This document shows, in pieces, positions 38,701 to 49,239 of a stretch of DNA of 64,000 nucleotides (positions are counted from its first letter, which is position 1; every line of letters starts with the position of its first letter). The stretch lies in assembly GCA_023247825.1 (NCBI GenBank), contig JAHFFR010000002.1, positions 4,972-68,971 on the forward strand, read 5' to 3'. The position numbers were made by a program, and so were the translations under genes. The notes beneath the pieces are model-generated. The model was not told where the DNA came from, did not search any database, and worked only from the letters and a program-made list of their open reading frames with translations. This stretch comes from Candidatus Omnitrophota bacterium (GTDB lineage Bacteria > Omnitrophota > Gorgyraeia > Gygaellales > Profunditerraquicolaceae).

Positions 38701-39033
38701 TTAGTAATCCCTGCGCGCGGCATAAGTGAAATGTGAAAAGTAGTTCCGCCACAAACTTTCGGTAGACATAAACTGGTTTGATCCGAAGAAATAATCTACA
38801 ATGGCTTCCCTTACACGGGTGATTTCTTTAAGATGATTAGAATTTCTGATGCCTTCCAAAGTCAAATCTATTAATTCAAGAGTTCGTTCAAAAGCCTTCT
38901 GGCTATAATCGGCATTGTTCTTAGCCCGCCATTTAAGCGCACGCTCAACTTCACTCCCGATATTTGCCATTTGTTCCAGGAATGATAACTCCCCCCAGCG
39001 GCCTGCCGCAAGATCTTTATGCTGATAACTCAT
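38701..39033 (-). CDS. Hypothetical small helical protein, partner of the DUF5674-like gene
   Basis: 110 aa. It overlaps the upstream gene by 4 nt (ATGA-type coupling). No catalytic motif recognised. Confidence 0.5.
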   Translation of the reverse strand: MSYQHKDLAAGRWGELSFLEQMANIGSEVERALKWRAKNNADYSQKAFERTLELIDLTLEGIRNSNHLKEITRVREAIVDYFFGSNQFMSTESLWRNYFSHFTYAARRDY

Positions 39034-39371
39034 CGCTTAATCCTTCTCTCAACAATTTCAATGATCTTCCCGCGTATTTCTCCATTTTGTACGCCCCGGC
39101 TTTTATTACCCTGCGATGGACGCATATTAATCATAGAATCAAACTCGATAAATTCATTACCCTTTATTTCCGGATAGAAATTAATACCCCAAAGGCTTTT
39201 CTGTTTTGAGCCGTCTTCTAAGAGCAGCGCCTCTAGATCAGAATGAAGCTCCGCGTCAAGCGCGATAATTTCTCTATCAACATCAACAACTGCTTTTACC
39301 AAATCCCCAAAAGTGGCAGCGGCCATCTGCTTAAGTTCATCAAGCGATAATATTTTTGTTATTATTTTCAT
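39030..39371 (-). CDS. DUF5674-like protein
   Basis: MKIITKILSLDELKQMAAATFGDLVKAVVDVDREIIALDAELHSDLEALLLEDGSKQKSLWGINFYP matches my recollection of the DUF5674 N-terminal pattern. Confidence 0.55.
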   Translation of the reverse strand: MKIITKILSLDELKQMAAATFGDLVKAVVDVDREIIALDAELHSDLEALLLEDGSKQKSLWGINFYPEIKGNEFIEFDSMINMRPSQGNKSRGVQNGEIRGKIIEIVERRIKR

Positions 39372-39406
39372 ATCATTGATTATACTCTCAAAGGCAACAT
39401 CTGCAA

Positions 39407-39439
39407 GTATTTTACCACGATTAATCCCGCAACCCGCTT
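39407..39439. repeat. 33-bp direct repeat, copy 1 (GTATTTTACCACGATTAATCCCGCAACCCGCTT)
   Basis: Identical to 40616-40648. On the minus strand it contains TGGTAAAAT (extended -10-like), upstream of the DUF5674-like gene. Confidence 0.9.
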
Positions 39440-39498
39440 ATAAGAAGCCTGCAATTCTTCGAAATAAACCAAAAACCCAGAAACACCCTTTGTTTTCC

Positions 39499-39906
39499 TT
39501 ATTTTGGAAGGCTGGATAACGTCCAACTATAGAATCTTTCTGATAGCTTTAATATATCAATAGCCTCTGTTTGATGGAACTCTCGATTTTCATAAGCTAT
39601 GATATTTTTCTTAGCAATAATTCTCTTCAGTGTAGTAATCTCGCTGCCTGTTCCTTTCTGAGGCAAGCGTGTAAGCAGGCCCGCTGCTTGCGTATGATCT
39701 TCCCCTATTGAGCGTATGCCCAGGTGAAAAACCAGCATAGCATCGCAACAGGATATAGCGCAGTGCACAGCGTTCAGGCCTACCGCAGTCCACTTGCCGG
39801 AATCTCTTGCTTCAAGCATAGTGTCAGAGAAGTCATTTGCTTTCTTTAGATAAATCTTATAATCGCTTTTTTCTACTGCTTTTGTCTTCAGCTTCTTGGG
39901 GGTCAT
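39499..39906 (-). CDS. HEPN-domain protein (putative toxin of a HEPN/MNT pair)
   Basis: 135 aa, helical, with an Rx4-6H-type motif RSIGEDH. It overlaps the MNT gene by 4 nt. Confidence 0.65.
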   Translation of the reverse strand: MTPKKLKTKAVEKSDYKIYLKKANDFSDTMLEARDSGKWTAVGLNAVHCAISCCDAMLVFHLGIRSIGEDHTQAAGLLTRLPQKGTGSEITTLKRIIAKKNIIAYENREFHQTEAIDILKLSERFYSWTLSSLPK

Positions 39907-40529
39907 AATATCCTTTCAAGCTGCTTACCATAAATGACCTTATTGGTTTTTAATATGTTCTTGATTACGGCAAGTCCTTTTTTATACTTAGATTTAAATT
40001 CCGCTTCCGTATTGATATAAGCAGAAAGAGTGTTCCCAAATTCCACGCTAATCTTCTTATCCATCTCCTCAAAAAGTAGTGCGGTTTTAGGCTTGGTTTT
40101 TAGATCTTTTATAATGACAATAAGGTCTATATCGCTTGCCGGGTGATCCTTGCGGACACTTACACTCCCAAATAAAGCAATGCTTATAATATCTTTCTTT
40201 ACGCTTGAAGCAGATACCTTTCTTTTTATCACAGAAAAAATATGACTCAATATCTTTTCTTCGCTAGTAAATAAAGGCTGCAGTAAACCTGAAACTGTAA
40301 AATTATTCTTGTTTAAGGTATAGACATGGGTTTTGCCTATATTACGCAAGAAGAGAACTCCTTCTCTATTTAGGCCCTGCAGTGCCTTATGAGCCGTGGC
40401 GGGAGTTACCCCTATTTCTCTGGCTATCTGACGGCCATTCCACTCCGCGCTTGTCTTACACAGAAACCGCAGGATTTTAACCTTCGTCTCATTATCTAAG
40501 ATCTTGTCTAAAGGGTTGCTGATTTTCAT
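39903..40529 (-). CDS. Winged-helix plus minimal nucleotidyltransferase (MNT) fusion protein (putative antitoxin)
   Basis: N-terminal wHTH (ILRFLCKTSAEWNGRQIAREIGVTPATAHKALQGL), then the nucleotidyltransferase motif LFGSVSVRKDHPASDIDLIVII. Confidence 0.7.
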   Translation of the reverse strand: MKISNPLDKILDNETKVKILRFLCKTSAEWNGRQIAREIGVTPATAHKALQGLNREGVLFLRNIGKTHVYTLNKNNFTVSGLLQPLFTSEEKILSHIFSVIKRKVSASSVKKDIISIALFGSVSVRKDHPASDIDLIVIIKDLKTKPKTALLFEEMDKKISVEFGNTLSAYINTEAEFKSKYKKGLAVIKNILKTNKVIYGKQLERIL

Positions 40530-40698: not shown

Positions 40699-43600
40699 TT
40701 AGGGGTGGGCGGCCTCTTCTACCCTAGTCGAAGAGGCGGTTTTCTCTTTCATATTTTCTGCCATTTGTTCCGTAAATAACGCTGTGGATACGAAATTTGC
40801 TTGAGGATTTTTCAAAGTATCTATTATTTTGGCTATTTTTTCGGCATTATCTTCCAATGCTATATTTTGCATTAATTCAATGGTCTTGGTTTTAAAATCG
40901 GTATTATGTGTTAACCTGCCGGCACTTTCCGGAATATGGGTAGCTTCATGGCAAACTCCCAGGATCAACCCTCCGATAAGTTCTCTTGCCTCAGGCTCAT
41001 CTACCTCCATTGTGCCTTTGAGAAGACGGCTTAACTGTTCAATTCTGCGGTTCATTCCTGCAAGATTCCATACAATTGTATCTGAACCTCTCCAGGTATA
41101 GGCAGAAGCCCCTCTTTCCAAATCAGCGGTAAACATAACCTTTATTTCTTTTCCCAGCAATAGACTTGCTGTTTTACTCAGGAACTCAGCCAACAAAGAG
41201 TAAATAACGAATTCAGGGTAGTTTTTTAAAATATCCGGGGCAAATGGGCTTAATTGTGTTATCTTCTCAAGTTCGATTTGACTAACTTTGCCATTGCTAT
41301 CACCGCGTATTTTTCGCATTAACTCATTTCTTTTACGAGCAAGCTCCTTGGCTAAAGCAGGAGGCATACCCTCTATAGAAAGCTTTCCGGTAGCTATTTC
41401 GATTATTAATTGTGTTATGGACATATCCTTATGAACGGGAAACACTGAGATAAGATAAACTAATTTATCCTTGTCAGCGCTATATTTGTCGATATCTAAT
41501 TTTTCCAAGCTGCCCTTTCGGATATTCTGTAAATCCTCGCGGACATCGTCAGGACATCGCGCCTCCCAAGTCAACAACACTTCCGGATCATCAAAATCAT
41601 AGGGGAATAATTCCACGACCTCTCTTAAGCCATCTATATACAATCTAGCAGCTGCCATTATTGCAGCAGCAAAAGTTGCTTTTTCCAGCTCTTTTAATTT
41701 TTCATCGCTTAAAGTTAGTCCTGATCTATCGCTAATCAATTCTAATTTATTGGGCAAATCAATAATTATTCCGTGCTTTAAAAGTATCTCAAGTAAAAAT
41801 GGGGGAATAGCTTTTACATATTGTTCATTGATAGAACCGACATAGAGTTGTTTATGCGTTACCGCGCGCCTATCCGGATGATGATAAAAGGAGAGCTTTC
41901 CATAAGTTGTATCGACCCAAGAAAGCAAGTCCTCTTCTCTAAAACTGCCTTTATTCAGCGCGTTGCCATTTAAGGTAATCTCTAAGATATTTTTATCAAT
42001 TAAACCTACGTAAAGAGCTGCTTTCTTCAGGATATAAGAGAGCTCGGCTTCGCTGTTTCCTTCAACATTCTTTATTACCTCAATCTCTGTGCCTTTATAC
42101 TGCTCTGGCTTCTGGAAAATGCTTACTTTTATATCAGTGGTTTCCTGTTTTGTATTCCGTATCGGCTTTAGGGAAACATAAATAACCTGCCCATCGCCTA
42201 AAGAGGTTTTTACTTTTACTTCTTGGGCATCTTTTAGGTTAGTAAGAAAACCTCGGCCGAATCTTCCTGTCAGCCTCTGGTCATCCCTCTTATCCGAAGC
42301 TCCAGGATTTAAAAGAAATTGCAATAATTTTACCGCGTCCATGCCAAAATCATCTTCAAATGTCAGGATAATTCTTTTTTTGTCCCCGCTAATTTCTGCC
42401 TTAATATTTAATTTGCCTTTTCTTCCCTGCCTTATGGCCTCATCGCGGGTATTTTGGCCGTTTTCTCTTATGTTGATATAGGGTGCGATATTCTGCTGAT
42501 CAACGCTTGTTTGAATATCACGTTCATTATATTTACGGCCAAGAGGATTAATGGAAATTTTTCCTTTATTGATTTCTTCCAATAATTTTTTTAATGTAGC
42601 GATATCCGCTGATTTACCTTCTCCATTTATTAAGTTGATAATAAATGGCAGTAAGGATAGAGAGAACTCTGTTGGCGCCGCTTTGCTTTTACGGTCTATC
42701 CAATTCAAATCCAGCATTTCAAATTTCGGCTCTATATAGTCAGAAAACTTGAGTTGAGGGGGAATATCATTGTATTTTATTATTGTTGACTTGAGAAAAG
42801 CGGAAGATTGTAGAAACATAAACGGGTTTTTCGACAGAGCCGCAACCATCCCAATATTGGAATCCCACGCCTCATAATCTCCTCTTTGGCCCAGAATAAA
42901 TTCAATCAAGGTATCTAAAACTATGCCTGCGATTGTTGTCTTAGGGAGATATTTCTTATTCAATAAGAATATAGGCCCATTTTCTATATCGTTGCTAATT
43001 AGCACAAGGCCGATATTTTCGTCCTGGATATCTATTGCATAAATTACAGCATTTACATTTGGAACCCATTCAATCTTATTATTTGCTTCTTTATCTAAAC
43101 TAAATTTTTTAAGCGGGATGTAAAAACCATATTTTTTTAAACCCGGCCGATACCCCAGAGAAATGAGTTTCGAAAAAACCTGCGGGTGTATAAGAACTGC
43201 TCCGTCTTTGGCCTGTTGCAGCTTATCGATATCCGGAATAAATATTATATTATTTTCTTTGGCCAGGCCAAACAATCTTTTATATAAATAATCCAATAAT
43301 TTATCTTCACTGGACTTATTCTCTTCATCCAATCTTTCCAATAAGGGAACAAGGCCGTTTATGGTGCGCCAATCTGCCTGCGCAAGTATTTTCTCAACCA
43401 GCTCTTTAACTATCGCGCGGGCTTTAGCATTAACCTCTATCTGATTCCTTGCCCTCGGCACAAGGCTGGGTTCGGATAACTCTACCGCTAATTTCTTGGG
43501 AATATTCTTGCCGATCAGCGGAATGCTAAAAATCTTCACGCCCATAATGGTCAAAACGACTTCAGAATGCTCGCTAGAATCAGTTTCCTTGACTAACGCC

Positions 43601-46600
43601 TGCGCGCTCCCTGAGGTAATAAATCTAAATAATGACAAGTCATTTATCAATACCTTCTGGTTATTATAATCTACATAAATTTTTGCCCTCTGGTTATAGC
43701 TTAAGGCGTCTTTTATCTCTTTTACTACACTTTCAGGATTAAAGCTGCTTTTAATTAAAACCTCTGTTCCGCGATTCCTATCAATATTCTTTAGAGGGCG
43801 GATAGTTATGTATAGATTAGCTATCTCCATATTATCCTTAAATGTATAAACTACTTCATAACCATCCTTGCTTGTTGAGGTATAGGTGCGCACAATTAAT
43901 TCATCACCCGGTTTTTTAAGTAAATTTAGCAAGGAGTAAAAACCTACCCCAAATTGCGCTACCGCGCCTTCTTGGCCTCGGCTACCGGATATTTTCGGAA
44001 CGACAAGATAAGCTATAATTTCACCTAAGTCCATGCCGCCTGCTTTATCAACTATCGCAACATTATTTTCCCGAACTATTATATCTACTTCCTTGAGGTA
44101 GCTTCCTTTAGAGATAGCATCAAGGCTGTTTGTAATAGGCTCGACAAGCGGCCTATTGTCCGCCTTCTCAAATTGACGCTTGATTATATCCTCAAGCTCT
44201 CCTTTCCAACGAGACGCATCGTTTATACCAGTAAGTTTTATTATTACCTCAATTAGATTTCTGTTCTTCCCAAGAAGCCACTTTCCAGCATCCGAAGAAT
44301 ATTTTTCTATGTCGTCCGACCCTAGATTCTTAGCTAACCGAATCTTAATGCTATGGGATATTTTGCCTAATAAATCTTTAATAAGACTCTTTATTTCTAC
44401 CGCATCATCAAGCGCCCGCCAACCCTTCCGACCCCCGGAGTCGGAATTGGTTACCTGCTTCTCCTTTATCTCCTTCGTCAACTCCCTGTCTTTTTCCCCG
44501 AATACTCCTCTTTGCAGTGCCCTTAGGAGATAATGGGGATTCTTAGGGTCTTTGTTAGCGATGGCAAGGGATTCGCCTTTAAGCCCGATTTTCGCTATTT
44601 CCTGATTTGTCTGTTTATTGATAATAACAAGCTGGTTTGCTTCATTAAGCTTAAGTTCTATGGCTTTGCTGTCTATTAAGTATTCACCTATTTCATGGAA
44701 TACAGCTACGGGGTTAGAGGAGAGGTCTTGATGCAGAGTAATTATATTATCCTGGCTTGAGGAAAAACCAAAGAGGTCTTCGATCAGGGTAGAAAAAGTA
44801 TAGAATTCCGGGGGTGACTTTTGTAGGATACCGAGGAACGCTTCTAAGATTTGACTCTGTTGGGGATTTACCTGGATTAAATCCTGTAATGGTTTAATTA
44901 GCCCCTGATTATCTACCGGAGTAAGCTCTATTTCTTTTGACACCTTAACGTTCTCCTTGGTATAGCTGACCTTAAGGGATTTCTTATTATCCTTTTGGAT
45001 TACTTGTTCTCCCTTGGCAAGCTTGCCGATTTGGGAAGAGTCGGCATTAGGCTGCCCAAGGTTTCTGATTGGCTCAGTTTCTGCCTTCAACACCTCCTCC
45101 TTAAGCTCATTTACTTTAATTTTAACCACAGGCCTATCTGTTATAGATATATTAATCTTACCAGTACTTGTTAATTCGTTACCCAAAGCATCTATCACCG
45201 CTGCGAATTGATTAGCCCGGACAGAATCTATGTCGTTTTTAATCAACTGCCTTATCTCTTCTTTGTGAACATTTAAATTATGGAGCATCTCCTCCGCGCC
45301 TTGGTTAATATATGTGTCCACATCTTCTATCCCCCGCGGCTCGCCGGTTTCCCTTAAAAGATTCATGAAGGATATATCACTTTCGTGCTGCATTTCAAGA
45401 TTCTCGCCGAATTCATATACAAATGAATCTTCCCAATCTATTCTTATGATTCCCTTATCGCTCAATAACATATGCCTTTCTGCAATATCCCCTGCTCCAA
45501 GCGCGCGGTCTAAAAGTTTTATTGCCCCTATCTCTTTAAGTCTTTCTTTTGCAAATTCAGGGGATTTAAAAATTGTTTCTAGACCTTTATCAGCAACAAA
45601 GTCTCTTCTCAAGCTTCTAAAAGCAATCCTTTCATGCTTAACAGGTTCAATTAACAGAAAATCTTTATCCTTTTTTTCTTCCAGAATATTCACATCAGAA
45701 TGCGGGAGATTTAATAAATCTGAAATCTTGGTAATAATTATTTCATTACGAGAACTGGATTTTTCTGTAAGCTTTACTAAAAAGACCTTCTCTTCCTGGG
45801 TCTTACTGGATCTTACATTTGCTTTAAATATGGGATTTCTTCCTTCCTGTTCAACAGAAGTTTGCCCCATTAAATCATACCCCAAGACATCGAATTGCTC
45901 ACCTTTCCAAGTAATATTTTTTAATTTTAAGACACTGGAAAACGTGTCAAAAAACTTATTAAAGGAATCGTCTGCTTCACGTATCTGGTTATCAGCTAAT
46001 CTATTATAGCCTACGGTATCAAACTCATTCAGTAACCCCTTATTAAATCTGAAACTTGTAAATTCATCGCTAAACCCACCGCCATAAGAATCTTTATATA
46101 ACGCATATCTTAAGTATACTTTTCTGGCAGCCTTAGGAATTTCCTCCCAATGTTGAATAACATTATTCAAATACCTGTTTATTCTTTCCACTGGAGCGTA
46201 TCGCAACGCACTATCAAGGTAATAATTATCAATTAAGTTTGTTTTTATTATATCTAACGGGAATTTATCTCTTTCCACGACTTCCGCTAATTGTTTAATA
46301 TTAAGTAGGGCTTTATCAATCTGGCTGGATATTTTATCAGGGGACATACCTCGATAAAAAAGAGATTTTAAAGTACCAATGCTTATCCGGCTTCTTATTT
46401 GTGAAACAAAATTATCTGCTAATCCCTGCGGAGCTATTAAAGGCGCCCGCTCTAACTGCTGTTTTAGCTGAAATACCGGGCTAATCTTTAAAGAACTTGA
46501 TTCGTCACCCTTACGCGATAAAGGATTCGACAATGAATTTTTAAAGCGAGACGCGATATTCTTAAATTTCGCAATCAATGAAAACTTGGAACTTGCTGGA

Positions 46601-49239
46601 GAAGAAATTATTTTCGATATTGCTGTTTCAGAAACCGGCATTACGGCTTTATTAATTTGCTGTTGCTTAGGCGCCTTAAAAACATCTTTATGCTTTGTCT
46701 CTTGCATATAACTCTGGAAGCTCACCAACGGCATACTATATACGCCATTTTCTCCTTTGATCAATTCAACCCTATTATTCTTCGCCCACTCCTTAAGATC
46801 CGGCGCAATTTTATCAAGATCATAAACCTCCTGAATAACTGTTTTTCCTCCCGCTTTTAAAACTACATTTACTGCTTTTATCCCCTTTTGTTTTTCTTCA
46901 GCTCTAAAGCCTATGACAAATTCCGCTGCTTTTTCGGACGATTCAAAGTTAAGCTGCCCCTGTTTCCCGATTGGCTGCGAAACAGTTTCTGGTATGTAAT
47001 TACTAAAGCTTGTTGGTTGATTGGGAATGGATGATTTTAGTCCTTCTGCAGAATTTAAATTAGGCACTATAATATTTCCATTATAATTATATGCCCCTTG
47101 CCCTAAATACTTCCCTTGAGGAACGGTGCTATGAATTTCCTGACCCGTCGTTGTTAATGCTTCCGCTTCATTAACTCGATCTCTTGCATTGTTCAAAATA
47201 GATCCTGTTGGATTAAATAAGGCGGGCTGGATAGGATTTTTTATAGTAGGGGTTATTCCAACCTGCGCGATTGGTGTTACATACTTACCGGAATAAGCTA
47301 TATTAGAATCAGACATAGAAGCTGACAAAGAAGTTTCTATTACGGCTCCGGCGGGGGAGGTAACGGAATAAGAAACCTGAGACATAGGCATTGAATTCGG
47401 CGCCCCGGCCGCCACTTGTATTGGGGAAAAACCAGCTATTTTATTTACGGCATCAGAAACTCCTGCTGCAAGAGGATTGATAAAGCTACTTACCACATTA
47501 GAAGCAAAACCATCTATTCCGGTTCCAGAAGATGCGGTTGATCCCTGGTTCTGCCGGTATTTATCTATAGTTGCGCTTATTCTGTGAGAAAAAATTGCGG
47601 GGTCGATTATTTCTCCGTGAGTCTTATCAAATAATTCTTGAAGCACTTCAGATTCTGTTCCTGTAATTCCTATATGAGCAAGAATAGCTCCGGGAAGATA
47701 TTCCTGAATCGCCTCTTCTTTAATGAACGTATTTAGTTTGAGCATTGCTCCTTTAGTAGCCCATTTACTGCCGATAACAAGCTCTTTATCCCCCAGCCAG
47801 TTTTCGAAAGGGCCTAAAATAGGAGACCGCTGAAGAATGGGGCCTAAAAAGGGTTGGGACGCGGCTACGCCTAAACTAAAAAGATAAGTTTTATTAATTG
47901 AAAAAGGTAATTTCCATTTAAAAGGCAGGACCCCGGTTAAATTCGTGCCCCCTTCTTCTTGGCTTAAAAAAGGAACTGAAGTTTGGTAAGCTTGGGCGCT
48001 CAATTTCAAGGCAGCGCCAGAAAAGCTATTAAATTTGGGGATATAGAATATACTAATACTTTTTTCATCTCCGCCTAAAACAGTGTTAACTGTCCCGAGC
48101 AGACCTGAGGTAAGAGTATTAAATAAAGTAACATCCTTAGTTATGCCTATTGTGCGGGGAACCAAATTCAGCGGATGCAAGCCTTCCAAAAATTCTTTTC
48201 CAGCAACCTTTAATCCAGGCATTAAGAGTTGTCCGCTTACTGCCTTAGCTCCCTGATAAGAAAAAGTTTTTATTCCCTGTCCGGTAGTGACTTTAGCAAT
48301 ATCCTTAGAAAAAGGGAGCATTATATCCTTAACAACTTCTCTGGTAGCTAACTTGGGAAGAAAAGATTTTATTTCTCCTAATGTAGCTCTTTCAAAAATT
48401 GCCTTGCCTGCTGCTGATACCGGACCTAAGCCGGGTAAGCCCACGATCTGATAAGCTTCTCCGGTAAGGTTATAGGCAATTTTATAATCCGGTGATAAAC
48501 CTAACTGATCGATCCCTGCGTATACAGGTTTTCTCGCCGCTTCCACTAAGGCATAATTCTTGACATAGGTTAACGCGGAATCCGCGAACCATTTTCCTCT
48601 TCCTAAAGATTCTGGGGCAAGATCTATAGGTTTAAGGATGTTGTAAGCTTTAGACCCTGCCCACTCAAACCCTTGCGCAGCTTTTGGTCCTATATACTTA
48701 GCTATTGTTGGCAATTCTAATCTAATATACGAAGTAACGGGTTTAATAATTGGAGAGATGGTTTTTCCGATAACCGGTAAACCTACTTCTATCGCACCTA
48801 AAACTGCTTCCTCGGGAGTTATAGAGGCAACACCTTGTTTTGTAGAAATATACGGATTGGCTAAATCTTTGTCTATTGATAATTTCGTTGCAATATTAAT
48901 TGGAAGGGGTATCCAATTGTTGAATGTTTGGCCTATTGCTTTTGCTTGAGGACTACCCGCCTTAACTCCTGTAATCATTTCCATGGCGGGATTGGTTACC
49001 CGACCAACGGCATAGAAAGCAGCGCCAAAAGGACCATGAGAATCATACGCTCTGGCTGCGTTAGGCATTGCCTGGCGATTGCCGGCTGTCCAGGAATTGT
49101 AACTGCTTTTTGCGCCATTATAAACATTGGAGAGGCGGGATTGAATTTTTTCAAAAGCTCCAGCGTAAGCTAACTGCTCAAAAGGAAAAATAAATATTAG
49201 TAACCAAGCAATAATTCTTTGCCAACTTTTATAGTTCAT
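40699..49239 (-). CDS. Giant (2,846 aa) secreted or envelope multidomain protein
   Basis: A single uninterrupted ORF of 8,541 nt. It has a Sec-type signal peptide and internal kinase-like, GHKL (two sets) and HExxH motifs, listed below as separate features. Confidence 0.85.
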   Translation of the reverse strand: MNYKSWQRIIAWLLIFIFPFEQLAYAGAFEKIQSRLSNVYNGAKSSYNSWTAGNRQAMPNAARAYDSHGPFGAAFYAVGRVTNPAMEMITGVKAGSPQAKAIGQTFNNWIPLPINIATKLSIDKDLANPYISTKQGVASITPEEAVLGAIEVGLPVIGKTISPIIKPVTSYIRLELPTIAKYIGPKAAQGFEWAGSKAYNILKPIDLAPESLGRGKWFADSALTYVKNYALVEAARKPVYAGIDQLGLSPDYKIAYNLTGEAYQIVGLPGLGPVSAAGKAIFERATLGEIKSFLPKLATREVVKDIMLPFSKDIAKVTTGQGIKTFSYQGAKAVSGQLLMPGLKVAGKEFLEGLHPLNLVPRTIGITKDVTLFNTLTSGLLGTVNTVLGGDEKSISIFYIPKFNSFSGAALKLSAQAYQTSVPFLSQEEGGTNLTGVLPFKWKLPFSINKTYLFSLGVAASQPFLGPILQRSPILGPFENWLGDKELVIGSKWATKGAMLKLNTFIKEEAIQEYLPGAILAHIGITGTESEVLQELFDKTHGEIIDPAIFSHRISATIDKYRQNQGSTASSGTGIDGFASNVVSSFINPLAAGVSDAVNKIAGFSPIQVAAGAPNSMPMSQVSYSVTSPAGAVIETSLSASMSDSNIAYSGKYVTPIAQVGITPTIKNPIQPALFNPTGSILNNARDRVNEAEALTTTGQEIHSTVPQGKYLGQGAYNYNGNIIVPNLNSAEGLKSSIPNQPTSFSNYIPETVSQPIGKQGQLNFESSEKAAEFVIGFRAEEKQKGIKAVNVVLKAGGKTVIQEVYDLDKIAPDLKEWAKNNRVELIKGENGVYSMPLVSFQSYMQETKHKDVFKAPKQQQINKAVMPVSETAISKIISSPASSKFSLIAKFKNIASRFKNSLSNPLSRKGDESSSLKISPVFQLKQQLERAPLIAPQGLADNFVSQIRSRISIGTLKSLFYRGMSPDKISSQIDKALLNIKQLAEVVERDKFPLDIIKTNLIDNYYLDSALRYAPVERINRYLNNVIQHWEEIPKAARKVYLRYALYKDSYGGGFSDEFTSFRFNKGLLNEFDTVGYNRLADNQIREADDSFNKFFDTFSSVLKLKNITWKGEQFDVLGYDLMGQTSVEQEGRNPIFKANVRSSKTQEEKVFLVKLTEKSSSRNEIIITKISDLLNLPHSDVNILEEKKDKDFLLIEPVKHERIAFRSLRRDFVADKGLETIFKSPEFAKERLKEIGAIKLLDRALGAGDIAERHMLLSDKGIIRIDWEDSFVYEFGENLEMQHESDISFMNLLRETGEPRGIEDVDTYINQGAEEMLHNLNVHKEEIRQLIKNDIDSVRANQFAAVIDALGNELTSTGKINISITDRPVVKIKVNELKEEVLKAETEPIRNLGQPNADSSQIGKLAKGEQVIQKDNKKSLKVSYTKENVKVSKEIELTPVDNQGLIKPLQDLIQVNPQQSQILEAFLGILQKSPPEFYTFSTLIEDLFGFSSSQDNIITLHQDLSSNPVAVFHEIGEYLIDSKAIELKLNEANQLVIINKQTNQEIAKIGLKGESLAIANKDPKNPHYLLRALQRGVFGEKDRELTKEIKEKQVTNSDSGGRKGWRALDDAVEIKSLIKDLLGKISHSIKIRLAKNLGSDDIEKYSSDAGKWLLGKNRNLIEVIIKLTGINDASRWKGELEDIIKRQFEKADNRPLVEPITNSLDAISKGSYLKEVDIIVRENNVAIVDKAGGMDLGEIIAYLVVPKISGSRGQEGAVAQFGVGFYSLLNLLKKPGDELIVRTYTSTSKDGYEVVYTFKDNMEIANLYITIRPLKNIDRNRGTEVLIKSSFNPESVVKEIKDALSYNQRAKIYVDYNNQKVLINDLSLFRFITSGSAQALVKETDSSEHSEVVLTIMGVKIFSIPLIGKNIPKKLAVELSEPSLVPRARNQIEVNAKARAIVKELVEKILAQADWRTINGLVPLLERLDEENKSSEDKLLDYLYKRLFGLAKENNIIFIPDIDKLQQAKDGAVLIHPQVFSKLISLGYRPGLKKYGFYIPLKKFSLDKEANNKIEWVPNVNAVIYAIDIQDENIGLVLISNDIENGPIFLLNKKYLPKTTIAGIVLDTLIEFILGQRGDYEAWDSNIGMVAALSKNPFMFLQSSAFLKSTIIKYNDIPPQLKFSDYIEPKFEMLDLNWIDRKSKAAPTEFSLSLLPFIINLINGEGKSADIATLKKLLEEINKGKISINPLGRKYNERDIQTSVDQQNIAPYINIRENGQNTRDEAIRQGRKGKLNIKAEISGDKKRIILTFEDDFGMDAVKLLQFLLNPGASDKRDDQRLTGRFGRGFLTNLKDAQEVKVKTSLGDGQVIYVSLKPIRNTKQETTDIKVSIFQKPEQYKGTEIEVIKNVEGNSEAELSYILKKAALYVGLIDKNILEITLNGNALNKGSFREEDLLSWVDTTYGKLSFYHHPDRRAVTHKQLYVGSINEQYVKAIPPFLLEILLKHGIIIDLPNKLELISDRSGLTLSDEKLKELEKATFAAAIMAAARLYIDGLREVVELFPYDFDDPEVLLTWEARCPDDVREDLQNIRKGSLEKLDIDKYSADKDKLVYLISVFPVHKDMSITQLIIEIATGKLSIEGMPPALAKELARKRNELMRKIRGDSNGKVSQIELEKITQLSPFAPDILKNYPEFVIYSLLAEFLSKTASLLLGKEIKVMFTADLERGASAYTWRGSDTIVWNLAGMNRRIEQLSRLLKGTMEVDEPEARELIGGLILGVCHEATHIPESAGRLTHNTDFKTKTIELMQNIALEDNAEKIAKIIDTLKNPQANFVSTALFTEQMAENMKEKTASSTRVEEAAHP
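40936..40950 (-). other. HExxH (HEATH) motif near the C-terminus of the giant protein
   Basis: LGVCHEATHIPESAGRLTHN. A possible zincin-type site; the motif alone is weak evidence. Confidence 0.3.
42150..42480 (-). other. GHKL ATPase motif set 2, sacsin-like
   Basis: N-box ENGQNTRDEA (42436-42465), G1-like EDDFGMD, G2 TGRFGRGFLT (42241-42270). Confidence 0.55.
43800..44160 (-). other. GHKL (Bergerat-fold) ATPase motif set 1, Hsp90-like
   Basis: N-box EPITNSLDA (44116-44142), G1 VDKAGGMD, G2 AQFGVGFYS (43933-43959). Confidence 0.65.
45400..45810 (-). other. PI3/PI4-kinase-like catalytic core motifs within the giant protein
   Basis: KVFLVKL (Lys strand), FLLIEPV (hinge-like), LLDRALGAGDIAERHMLL (compare GxGDRHxxN) and GIIRIDWEDSF (compare IDFG / IDHG). 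Confidence 0.4.
49159..49239 (-). other. Signal peptide of the giant protein
   Basis: MNYKSWQRIIAWLLIFIFPFEQLAYA|GA: positive n-region, hydrophobic core, AYA cleavage-type motif. Confidence 0.6.

What the first reader, a model, noticed from the sequence alone, without database searches (positions are those of the whole stretch)
45400..45810. Divergent PI3/PI4-kinase-like catalytic core inside the giant protein
The segment reads KVFLVKL ... FLLIEPV ... LLDRALGAGDIAERHMLLSDKGIIRIDWEDSF. The order and spacing parallel the Lys strand, hinge, catalytic loop (GxGDRHxxN) and metal-binding IDFG/IDHG of PI3/4-kinase-like and related atypical kinases. However, a 3-residue insertion splits the D from the RH, and the Asn and DFG positions are altered. 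It could be an active atypical kinase or a pseudokinase scaffold.
Basis: inference. Interest (0 to 1): 0.55.

Follow-up and report, generated by a model that had tools for sequence, protein, structure and literature searches.

The report
Rare lipid-kinase-like domain in giant protein
A 280-residue stretch of a 2846-residue bacterial protein that starts with a signal-peptide-like segment belongs to a very rare, unnamed kinase-like family closest to PI3K/PI4K lipid kinases and the kinase domain of LanM lanthipeptide synthetases, and it keeps all the catalytic positions except that a histidine replaces the usual metal-binding asparagine.

Summary
The motifs are real. They lie on the minus strand, at residues 1151-1273 of a 2846-aa ORF (window 40699-49239).

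Direct searches of Pfam, NCBIfam, PADLOC and PDB sequences found nothing. An exhaustive HMMER scan plus a genome scan found only seven relatives, in Saganbacteria and "Planctomycetia" MAGs, several inside other giant ORFs.

Of 23 invariant positions, those at the expected kinase sites are:
- K1156 (beta3)
- hinge I1197-E1198
- L-x-A-x-D1251-x3-[KR]-H1256
- R-I-D1268-W-E1270

The alphaC acidic residue E1166 is conserved as D/E.

Two AlphaFold models (pLDDT 62-65) hit only kinases in the PDB. Vps34, PI3K gamma/delta/alpha and PI4KIIIbeta rank first (E down to 3e-5, TM up to 0.54).

Profile comparisons align the hinge-to-metal-loop segment with PIK3CA (score 32.5; shuffles at most 18.7) and with LanM (40.6; shuffles at most 22). 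PKA and a RIO-like kinase score at background.

The PI3/4-kinase-like reading is therefore supported. No 3-residue insertion is needed: H1256 sits at the Asn position (D+5), and the D-to-D spacing of 17 equals that of CylM. The strict conservation favours an active atypical kinase over a pseudokinase. The substrate is unknown.

This is a new family-level variant of a known fold, of moderate interest.

The parts
40699..49239 (-). Giant ORF, 2846 aa, that carries the domain. Its N-terminus (aa 1-620) and C-terminus (aa 1451-2846) are shared with relatives. The central part (aa ~620-1450) is variable.
49159..49239 (-). N-terminal signal-peptide-like segment (aa 1-27: K/R n-region, hydrophobic IIAWLLIFIFPF, then AYA-G).
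   Evidence: (hydrophobic 19-mer at aa 9) and direct reading. Export is an inference; no signal-peptide predictor was run.
45184..46017 (-). Kinase-like domain, aa 1075-1352 (the finding).
   Evidence: Limits come from the homologue matches and the family HMM. Fold.
45835..45843 (-). G1133-[KR]1134-N1135, an invariant turn between two N-lobe strands. It is a candidate phosphate-binding (P-loop-like) element.
   Evidence: The role is an inference.
45772..45774 (-). K1156, invariant Lys in the strand just before the alphaC-like helix (equivalent to the beta3 / 'VAIK' Lys).
45742..45744 (-). E1166 in the alphaC-like helix. D/E in all family members; the likely salt-bridge partner of K1156.
45640..45654 (-). 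Hinge L-I-E-P-V (aa 1196-1200; I1197 and E1198 invariant). It aligns with the PIK3CA hinge GLIEVV.
45472..45501 (-). Catalytic loop L1247-G-A1249-G-D1251-I-A-E-R1255-H1256. D1251 is equivalent to the Asp of DRH/HRD. H1256 occupies the position of the metal-binding Asn.
45430..45444 (-). Metal-binding loop R1266-I-D1268-W-E1270 (all invariant). It is equivalent to IDFG in PI3K and IDxE in LanM. D1268 lies 17 residues after D1251.
   Evidence: CylM numbering from PMC4550811
43834..44148 (-). GHKL ATPase-like domain 1 (aa 1698-1802) in the same protein. Context only.
   Evidence: HATPase_c_3, E 2.4e-5, just below the cut-off
42211..42456 (-). Sacsin-type ATP-binding-like domain (aa 2262-2343) in the same protein. 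Context only.
   Evidence: NF047352, E 3.5e-7, below the cut-off
40936..40950 (-). HEATH (HExxH) motif, aa 2764-2768, near the C-terminus. Conserved in P0002. Context only.

Best explanation
Residues ~1075-1352 of the giant protein form a protein-kinase-like (PKL) domain of the lipid-kinase branch, the branch that holds PI3K/PI4K and the LanM dehydratase-kinase domain. The domain belongs to a very rare family that has no name and no database model. Proposed mechanism (all inferred): ATP binds between a five-stranded N-lobe and a helical C-lobe. K1156, held by E1166 of the alphaC-like helix, and the G-[KR]-N turn contact the phosphates. The L-I-E-P-V hinge contacts the adenine. D1251 orients or deprotonates a substrate hydroxyl. 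H1256, D1268 and possibly E1270 bind the divalent metal(s), and R1255 may contact the gamma-phosphate. The likely product is a phosphorylated hydroxyl, either a protein Ser/Thr (as in LanM, HipA and PIKK) or a lipid or sugar head group. Shown here: the fold class, the nearest relatives, and conservation of the catalytic positions. Inferred only: activity, metal, substrate, and export of the giant protein.
For: 1. Family. An exhaustive HMMER search of 1.84 billion representatives found four relatives covering aa 1075-1349. One more came, and two more lie inside giant ORFs of Planctomycetia MAGs.
2. Conservation. Of 23 invariant columns among seven full-length domains at 24-28% identity, those at the expected kinase positions are K1156, I1197-E1198, L1247/A1249/D1251/H1256 and R-I-D-W-E 1266-1270. 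E1166 is conserved as D/E.
3. Fold. AF2 models of this domain (pLDDT 62, pTM 0.65) and of homologue P0005 (pLDDT 65, pTM 0.67) show strands, an alphaC-like helix, more strands, and then a helical C-lobe. All top-50 Foldseek PDB hits are kinases for both models. The best are PI3Kgamma, PI4KIIIbeta and Vps34 (E 1e-3, TM 0.43-0.49), and Vps34 (E 3e-5), PI3Kgamma (TM 0.53) and PI3Kdelta/alpha (TM 0.50).
4. Profile comparison with PIK3CA 773-1068. Score 32.5, P 8e-4, 104 columns running from the hinge through LGxxD....[H/N] to (F)xID(W/F). Sixty column shuffles reached at most 18.7 and the reversed alignment 16.2.
5. Profile comparison with ten LanM N-terminal domains. Score 40.6, P 2.7e-4. Forty shuffles reached at most 22.0. 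PKA (19.3, unrelated region) and a RIO-like kinase (15.9) are at background.
6. Pfam. Weak DUF4135 (LanM kinase) hits on the catalytic-loop region in 2 of 8 members (E 0.009-0.028).
7. Spacing. D1251 to D1268 is 17 residues, the same as CylM D347 to D364 (PMC4550811).
8. Context. The positional orthologue P0002 (same glmS-rsmI-giant synteny) carries a bona fide RIO/Pkinase domain in its different central region. This suggests that a kinase module is a recurrent requirement of this giant-protein family.
Against: The alignment is shallow (6 rows allowed for AF2, 8 for the profiles). Model confidence is only moderate, and the catalytic and activation-loop region itself is poorly predicted (pLDDT 32-42). 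Foldseek TM-scores are 0.4-0.54 with large rmsd, and Bud32, CtkA/HipA, RIO and MTR kinase also appear, so placement within PKL is not certain. hhalign probabilities are only 24-42%. N-lobe alignments to LanM and PI3K are unreliable. There is no HMM hit to PI3_PI4_kinase or to any PDB sequence. The family has no GxGxxG loop, no DRH histidine, no Asn and no DFG glycine, so non-canonical chemistry or loss of activity cannot be excluded. The signal-peptide-like N-terminus would place the domain outside the cytoplasm, where ATP is scarce.
Confidence: 0.8

Rival explanations
1. The domain is a pseudokinase scaffold. It has the kinase fold but has lost phosphotransfer, and it serves as a nucleotide-binding or protein-interaction module in the giant protein.
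For: The canonical Asn, the DFG Gly, the DRH His and the Gly-rich loop are all missing. AF2 is unsure about the catalytic loop. No Pfam kinase model recognises it.
Against: Pseudokinases usually degrade the catalytic positions in different ways in different lineages. Here K, D, H, D and E are invariant across Saganbacteria, Planctomycetia MAGs and this genome at ~25% overall identity. His is a competent metal ligand. The LanM family, which is active, also has D-x-E instead of DFG (PMC4550811).
Confidence: 0.2
2. The domain is an ePK-like, RIO-, Bud32- or HipA-type small protein kinase rather than a relative of the PI3K/PI4K/LanM branch.
For: Bud32, CtkA, HipA, RIO1 and many ePKs appear in the Foldseek lists with E 3e-4 to 1e-2 and TM(target) up to 0.51. 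The positional orthologue P0002 carries a RIO-like kinase. The family HMM gives a non-significant alignment to the N-lobe of that kinase.
Against: The best Foldseek E-values and query-normalised TM-scores belong to Vps34, PI3K and PI4K in both models. hhalign scores against PKA (19.3) and the P0002 RIO-like domain (15.9) are at shuffle level, while PIK3CA (32.5) and LanM (40.6) are far above it. The family motif L-G-A-x-D (L-R-A-R-D in the two Planctomycetia giant ORFs) resembles the PI3K motif LGIGD, and the LIEYV hinge resembles the PI3K hinge LIEVV.
Confidence: 0.15
3. The domain is a LanM-type dehydratase: it phosphorylates Ser/Thr and then eliminates the phosphate, acting on a peptide or on the Ser/Thr-rich linker of the giant protein itself.
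For: The best profile score is to LanM. The I-D-x-E metal loop and the 17-residue D-to-D spacing are shared with LanM. DUF4135 is the only Pfam family touched. The same protein has a linker at aa ~600-800 that is rich in S/T/P/G/N/Q.
Against: The domain is ~280 aa, against ~600 aa for a LanM dehydratase. There is no room for the kinase-activation domain that supplies the elimination residues Arg506 and Thr512 in CylM (PMC4550811). The D-x-H-x-x-N motif is not kept. No LanC cyclase domain was found in the protein, and I did not look for precursor-peptide genes nearby.
Confidence: 0.05
4. The resemblance is due to chance, and the segment is an unrelated alpha/beta domain.
For: No direct sequence search (Pfam, NCBIfam, PADLOC, PDB) gives a hit.
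Against: Two independently built models retrieve only kinases among the listed top 50 of more than 1600 matches. Profile scores are about twice the maximum of the 40-60 shuffles. The invariant residues fall on the catalytic positions.
Confidence: 0.03

Closest known systems
Class I-III PI3-kinases and type III PI4-kinases (Pfam PI3_PI4_kinase, PF00454), e.g. Vps34, p110 alpha/gamma/delta and PI4KIIIbeta
   Same: These are the best structural matches for both models. The hinge LIE(Y/P)V resembles GLIEVV. The catalytic loop L-G-A-x-D resembles L-G-I-G-D. The metal loop (F)-x-I-D-(W/F) also matches, and all of these align in one register. D-to-D spacing is 17 here, against 18 in PIK3CA (D915 to D933 in the aligned sequence).
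   Different: There is no PF00454 hit. The DRH histidine (D+2) is absent. The D+5 Asn is a His. DFG is replaced by DWE. There are no helical, C2 or Ras-binding accessory domains. The domain is only ~280 aa and sits in the variable centre of a bacterial giant protein.
LanM class II lanthipeptide synthetase dehydratase/kinase domain (Pfam DUF4135, PF13575; CylM structure, PMC4550811)
   Same: This gives the highest profile-profile score (40.6, P 2.7e-4) and is the only Pfam family touched. Both have I-D-x-E rather than DFG, an identical 17-residue D-to-D spacing, and bacterial origin. Both have the lipid-kinase-type fold and no sequence match to PI3K detectable by simple search.
   Different: The Pfam score is far below gathering (~14 bits against 29). 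D-x-H-x-E-N is replaced by D-x3-[KR]-H. The capping helices, kinase-activation domain, elimination residues and fused LanC cyclase are all missing, and the domain is less than half the size. No precursor-peptide genes were looked for.
RIO/Bud32/Kdo-type small kinases, as found in the positional orthologue P0002 (aa 1086-1229)
   Same: The size is similar (~250 aa). Both are minimal PKL domains without a long activation segment. They appear in the Foldseek lists. P0002 carries such a kinase in the same variable central region of the orthologous giant protein.
   Different: There is no sequence or profile similarity. P0002 has the canonical H-R-D-L-H-D-Q-N ... I-D-L-S motifs, while this family has D-x4-H ... 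I-D-W-E.

Membership tests
Protein-kinase-like (PKL) fold superfamily | Bilobal fold: an N-lobe beta-sheet with an alphaC helix, and a helical C-lobe. | tested here: met
   The AF2 secondary-structure order matches. All top-50 Foldseek PDB hits are kinases for both models. Confidence is moderate (pLDDT 62-65, TM 0.4-0.54).
Protein-kinase-like (PKL) fold superfamily | An invariant Lys in the strand before alphaC, and an acidic partner in alphaC. | tested here: met
   K1156 is invariant and E1166 is D/E in all members. K1156 lies in the strand at aa 1150-1159 and E1166 in the helix at aa 1160-1176 of the model.
Protein-kinase-like (PKL) fold superfamily | A catalytic-loop Asp, a metal-binding Asn five residues later, and a metal-binding Asp (DFG). 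| tested here: inconclusive
   D1251 and D1268 are invariant and align with D915 and D933 of PIK3CA. The D+5 position is an invariant His (H1256), not Asn.
Pfam PI3_PI4_kinase (PF00454) | A match to the family HMM at or above the gathering score. | tested here: not met
   There was no hit even at E<=10, for the domain or for any of the 8 members.
Pfam PI3_PI4_kinase (PF00454) | The G-x-G-D-R-H-x-x-N catalytic loop and the I-D-F-G metal loop. | tested here: not met
   The sequence is L-G-A-G-D-I-A-E-R-H and R-I-D-W-E. The Asp residues are kept, but the D+2 His and the D+5 Asn are not.
Pfam PI3_PI4_kinase (PF00454) | Closest structural neighbours are PI3K/PI4K catalytic domains. | tested here: met
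   Vps34, PI3Kgamma/delta/alpha and PI4KIIIbeta rank first. The hhalign score against PIK3CA is 32.5, against a shuffle maximum of 18.7.
LanM dehydratase domain (Pfam DUF4135, PF13575) | A match to the family HMM at or above the gathering score (29 bits). | tested here: not met
   Only 2 of 8 members hit, with E 0.009-0.028 and ~14 bits. The window's own domain does not hit.
LanM dehydratase domain (Pfam DUF4135, PF13575) | The conserved active-site set K, D-x-H-x-x-N and D (CylM K274, D347, H349, N352, D364). | tested here: inconclusive
   Both Asp residues align and their spacing is identical (17). The D-x-E is shared. The D+2 His is absent and N is replaced by H. The Lys could not be aligned reliably.
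LanM dehydratase domain (Pfam DUF4135, PF13575) | A kinase-activation domain with elimination residues, a fused LanC cyclase, and a neighbouring precursor peptide. | tested here: not met
   The domain is ~280 aa, with no further Pfam domains around it. No LanC hit was found in the giant protein. The elimination residues could not be aligned and were not tested. Precursor-peptide genes were not looked for; the neighbouring genes are rsmI, glmS and a nucleotidyltransferase.
RIO / Bud32 / ePK kinases | Sequence or profile similarity to Pkinase/RIO1 models, and the H-x-D-x4-N motif. | tested here: not met
   There are no Pfam hits. The hhalign score against PKA is 19.3 and against the P0002 RIO-like domain 15.9, both at background.

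The most novel reading that the evidence does not exclude
This is a free-standing bacterial branch of the lipid-kinase fold that lies, in sequence terms, between eukaryotic PI3K/PI4K and the LanM kinase domain. It scores better against each of them than they score against each other. It uses a His-based metal site, and it is deployed as an exchangeable effector module in exported giant proteins of uncultured bacteria: at the same chromosomal locus a sister genome carries a RIO-type kinase instead. If it is active on lipids or host/prey proteins, it would be a new class of secreted atypical kinase and a clue to the origin of the LanM and PI3K catalytic cores.
Probability: 0.15. Interest if true: 0.75.

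Novelty: new variant of a known kind. Interest (0 to 1): 0.5.

Why it matters
New protein-kinase-like families regularly turn out to have unexpected chemistry; SelO (AMPylation), SidJ (glutamylation) and LanM (phosphorylation followed by elimination) are examples. This family has fewer than ten known members among ~15 billion predicted proteins. It keeps every catalytic position under strict conservation but replaces the universal metal-binding Asn with His. It also links the LanM kinase domain to PI3K/PI4K at the sequence-profile level, where the CylM authors reported no detectable sequence similarity. Its host is a 2846-aa protein with a signal-peptide-like N-terminus. That protein also carries two GHKL/sacsin-like ATPase modules and an HExxH motif, and its central region is swapped between positional orthologues, each version containing a kinase of a different family. 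That makes it a tractable entry point into what the giant proteins of uncultured bacteria do. The stand-alone 310-564-aa homologues would be easy to express.

Tried and rejected
**Direct family and sequence searches**
- hmmscan of the domain against Pfam at E<=10 found nothing. NCBIfam and PADLOC also found nothing.
- phmmer and hmmsearch against PDB sequences gave only noise.

**Searches for relatives**
- The word-indexed homologue search with aa 991-1415 found nothing. Only the exhaustive HMMER scan found relatives.
- A genome-contig scan with the domain itself found nothing.
- Alignment A1 was too divergent for pattern scanning.
- Both metagenome scans and one viral scan found nothing.

**Structure prediction**
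Both models therefore rest on 6 rows.

**Test of whether P0002's kinase is a diverged copy of this domain (rejected)**
- BLASTP, hhalign and the family HMM all gave nothing significant.

**Other alignment attempts**
- Extending the hhalign alignments into the N-lobe, to pair K1156 with CylM K274 or PIK3CA K802, gave alignments that were not reliable.

- Gap-free alignment to PIK3CA and LanM puts H1256 on the Asn, with normal D-to-D spacing.

**Context and organism**
- The plus-strand ORF 45314-46009 (231 aa) that overlaps the finding is antisense to the giant ORF. I did not test it and treat it as an artefact.
- The organism could not be named, because cluster look-ups returned no source names.
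Full report
**1. The observation**

The three plus-strand frames of 45400-45810 do not contain the quoted peptides. They lie on the minus strand, inside a 2846-aa ORF at 40699-49239:
- KVFLVKL is aa 1151-1157.
- FLLIEPV is aa 1194-1200.
- LLDRALGAGDIAERHMLLSDKGIIRIDWEDSF is aa 1242-1273, window 45421-45516.

The window is a bacterial chromosome segment next to the origin of replication. It holds dnaA, dnaN, gyrB, gyrA, glmS and rsmI, then the giant gene, then pyrR/pyrB/pyrC and carB. Its G+C is 42.7%. The giant gene is lower, at 39.4% (GC3 0.36 against 0.43-0.51 in neighbouring housekeeping genes). The identical protein is encoded on contigs from two other sequencing runs.

**2. Direct searches are blind to it**

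- On the whole protein, Pfam finds only a borderline HATPase_c_3 domain at aa 1698-1802.
- On the domain alone, Pfam finds nothing even at E<=10.
- NCBIfam, PADLOC and PDB sequence searches (single sequence and profile) give nothing relevant.
- The word-indexed search of 5.8 billion proteins with aa 991-1415 returned nothing.

**3. The giant protein has conserved ends and a variable centre**

A whole-protein search found two relatives:
- P0002 (4505 aa) matches aa 3-195 and aa 1451-2846 (71% identity).
- P0003 (2569 aa) matches aa 106-623 (59% identity).

The central ~620-1450 aa is not shared. P0002 sits in the same gene order (glmS, rsmI, giant), so it is a positional orthologue. Its own, different, central region carries a bona fide RIO1/Pkinase domain (aa 1086-1229, E 1.8e-13) and a DnaJ domain. 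That kinase shows no detectable similarity to the segment studied here.

**4. A very small family exists**

An exhaustive HMMER scan of 1.84 billion representative proteins found four relatives that cover aa 1075-1349:
- P0004, a 122-aa fragment at 43% identity.
- P0005, 310 aa.
- P0006, 564 aa, from a Candidatus Saganbacteria MAG.
- P0007, 1352 aa, from a Planctomycetia MAG.

A profile search added P0008. A scan of one genome per GTDB species added two more copies. Both lie inside giant ORFs that run off their contigs (>3379 aa and >1658 aa) in 'uncultured Planctomycetia' MAGs. One of these ORFs ends in a GNAT acetyltransferase domain. Two metagenome scans and one viral scan found no further members.

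Among the seven full-length domains, each 24-28% identical to this one, 23 columns are invariant. They include:
- G1133 and N1135, a turn between two N-lobe strands.
- K1156.
- I1197-E1198.
- G1238.
- L1247, A1249, D1251 and H1256.
- R1266-I-D1268-W-E1270.
- F1291 and G1314.

E1166 is always D or E, and R1255 is always K or R.

**5. Fold**

AlphaFold2 on the six admissible sequences gave a model of this domain with pLDDT 62 and pTM 0.65. Its elements, in order:
- An N-terminal helix.
- Four strands, with K1156 in the last one.
- A 17-residue helix that holds E1166.
- Two more strands ending at the LIEPV hinge.
- A long helix ending at L1247.
- A poorly predicted catalytic and metal loop (pLDDT 32-42).
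- A helical C-terminal half.

Foldseek against the PDB returned only kinases in the top 50. PI3Kgamma ranked first (E 1e-3, probability 1.0, TM 0.43), followed by PI4KIIIbeta (TM 0.49) and Vps34 (TM 0.46). Bud32, HipA and many ePKs came lower.

A second model, of the stand-alone homologue P0005 (pLDDT 65, pTM 0.67), gave 19 hits at E<=1e-3, all of them kinases. They were Vps34 (E 3e-5, TM up to 0.54), PI3Kgamma (TM 0.53), and PI3Kdelta/alpha (TM 0.50), then Bud32 and CtkA. MTR kinase, HipA and RIO follow just above that threshold.

**6. Sequence-profile placement**

Two of the eight members weakly touch Pfam DUF4135, the LanM dehydratase/kinase domain, on their catalytic-loop region (E 0.009-0.028). 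DUF4135 is listed among the families of the Pfam PKinase clan in PMC9758233. The CylM structure showed that it has a lipid-kinase fold, with active-site residues K274, D347, H349, N352 and D364 (PMC4550811).

I collected ten LanM N-terminal domains from annotated plasmids. All carry D-x-H-x-E-N ... (I/V)-D-x-E. The hhalign results:

| Comparison | Score | P | Controls / note |
|---|---|---|---|
| Family (8 seqs) vs LanM (10 seqs) | 40.6 | 2.7e-4 | 40 column shuffles: max 22.0, mean 14.4; reversed 21.3 |
| Family vs PIK3CA 773-1068 | 32.5 | 8e-4 | 60 shuffles: max 18.7; reversed 16.2 |
| Family vs PKA | 19.3 | 0.092 | aligns an unrelated region |
| Family vs P0002 RIO-like domain | 15.9 | 0.21 | |
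| LanM vs PIK3CA | 22.7 | 0.048 | |

The family-LanM alignment pairs G-x-I-x-A-V-E-Y-x-L-G-A-x-D-x-x-x-K-H ... F-R-I-D-W-E with the LanM consensus ... t-D-x-H-x-E-N ... I-D-x-E-T.

The family-PIK3CA alignment spans 104 columns. It pairs:
- e-L-I-E-Y-V with G-L-I-E-V-V (the hinge).
- L-G-A-x-D-x-x-x-K-H with L-G-I-G-D-R-H-N-S-N.
- F-R-I-D-W-E-f-l-l-D with F-H-I-D-F-G-H-F-L-D.

The PKA control sequence was verified. The family is therefore specifically close to the PI3K/PI4K/LanM branch, and it scores better against each of those two families than they score against each other. Alignment of the N-lobes was not reliable.

**7. Correction of the motif reading**

In PI3K, LanM and ePK kinases that position is the metal-binding Asn. 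D1268 lies 17 residues downstream, exactly as in CylM (347 to 364) and one less than in PIK3CA.

So there is no insertion. The DRH histidine is missing, Asn is replaced by an invariant His, and DFG is D-W-E, as in the D-x-E of LanM.

**8. Mechanism (inferred)**

- ATP binds between the two lobes.
- The K1156-E1166 pair and the G-[KR]-N turn handle the phosphates.
- The hinge contacts the adenine.
- D1251 acts on the substrate hydroxyl.
- H1256, D1268 and possibly E1270 bind the metal.
- R1255 may contact the gamma-phosphate.

Strict conservation of all these positions across very distant lineages argues for an active enzyme rather than a pseudokinase, but nothing here proves activity. The substrate is unknown. 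The size of the domain and the lack of a LanC domain argue against LanM-type dehydration.

The giant protein begins with a signal-peptide-like segment (and the sequence itself). It also carries two GHKL/sacsin-like ATPase modules and a C-terminal HExxH motif. The domain may therefore act outside the producer's cytoplasm, for example in a target cell. This is speculation. The Saganbacteria homologues lack such an N-terminus.

**9. Comparison and novelty**

The domain works like a PI3K/PI4K/LanM-type kinase core. It fails the membership tests of both Pfam families (HMM score and motif). It is best described as a new, very rare family within the lipid-kinase-like branch of the PKL superfamily, with a D-x3-[KR]-H ... 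I-D-W-E signature. To my knowledge, which I did not verify, a conserved His at the Asn position is unusual among active PKL enzymes.

**10. Verdict**

- Confidence that this is a PKL-fold domain of that branch: about 0.8.
- Confidence that it is catalytically active: about 0.55-0.6.
- Interest: moderate (0.5).

Noticed in passing
window 40699-49239 compared with L019:4843-18360: The giant gene has a positional orthologue, P0002 (4505 aa), in the same glmS-rsmI-giant gene order. The N- and C-terminal thirds are 43-71% identical, but the central region is completely different and carries a RIO1/Pkinase domain plus a DnaJ domain. The centre therefore looks like an exchangeable cassette, and a kinase of a different family is present in each version.
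   Followed up: partly
window 40936-44148 (aa 1698-2768 of the giant protein): The conserved C-terminal half holds two GHKL/sacsin-like ATP-binding modules: HATPase_c_3 at aa 1698-1802, and the NCBIfam sacsin N-terminal-like domain at aa 2262-2343 with a G-R-F-G-R-G-F motif. It also holds a C-terminal HEATH (HExxH) motif at aa 2764. P0003 also ends with an HExxH (HEEYH). There is no PDB sequence match.
   Followed up: partly
L008:3-10139 and L009:1-4974: The same kinase-like domain occurs inside other giant ORFs (>3379 aa and >1658 aa, open at both contig ends) of 'uncultured Planctomycetia' MAGs. Apart from that domain they are unrelated to the window's giant protein. One ends in a GNAT acetyltransferase domain. 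Almost nothing else in them matches Pfam.
   Followed up: partly
window 40699-49239: The giant gene is compositionally atypical: 39.4% G+C and GC3 0.36, against 42.7% for the window and GC3 0.43-0.51 for glmS, gyrA, gyrB and pyrC. The variable centre is lowest (37.8%). This may reflect horizontal acquisition or relaxed codon selection.
   Followed up: no
window 38701-40529 (-): Four small genes lie directly downstream of the giant gene: an HTH plus Pol-beta-type nucleotidyltransferase (39903-40529), a 135-aa ORF overlapping it by 4 nt (39499-39906, no Pfam hit; possibly the partner of a toxin-antitoxin pair), a DUF5674 protein (39030-39371, E 1e-36) and a 110-aa ORF (38701-39033). A DUF5674 gene with an adjacent ~108-aa ORF also lies ~6 kb from the homologue P0006 in the Saganbacteria contig (L003:15481-16144). 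This may be coincidence.
   Followed up: partly
L003:8001-10449: In the Saganbacteria MAG the stand-alone kinase-like gene (P0006) is convergent with, and overlaps by 8 nt, a Fic (AMPylase-family) gene. A canonical Ser/Thr protein kinase gene lies 4 kb away.
   Followed up: no
window 45314-46009 (+): A 231-aa GTG-started ORF lies antisense to the kinase-like segment of the giant gene. It is Ser/Leu/Ile-rich. I judged it an artefact of the opposite-strand coding sequence and did not test it further.
   Followed up: no
L019:356-3397: The glmS gene next to the orthologous giant gene in the JGI contig is interrupted by an intein with a LAGLIDADG endonuclease (1013 aa product). The window's glmS (612 aa) has none.
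   Followed up: no
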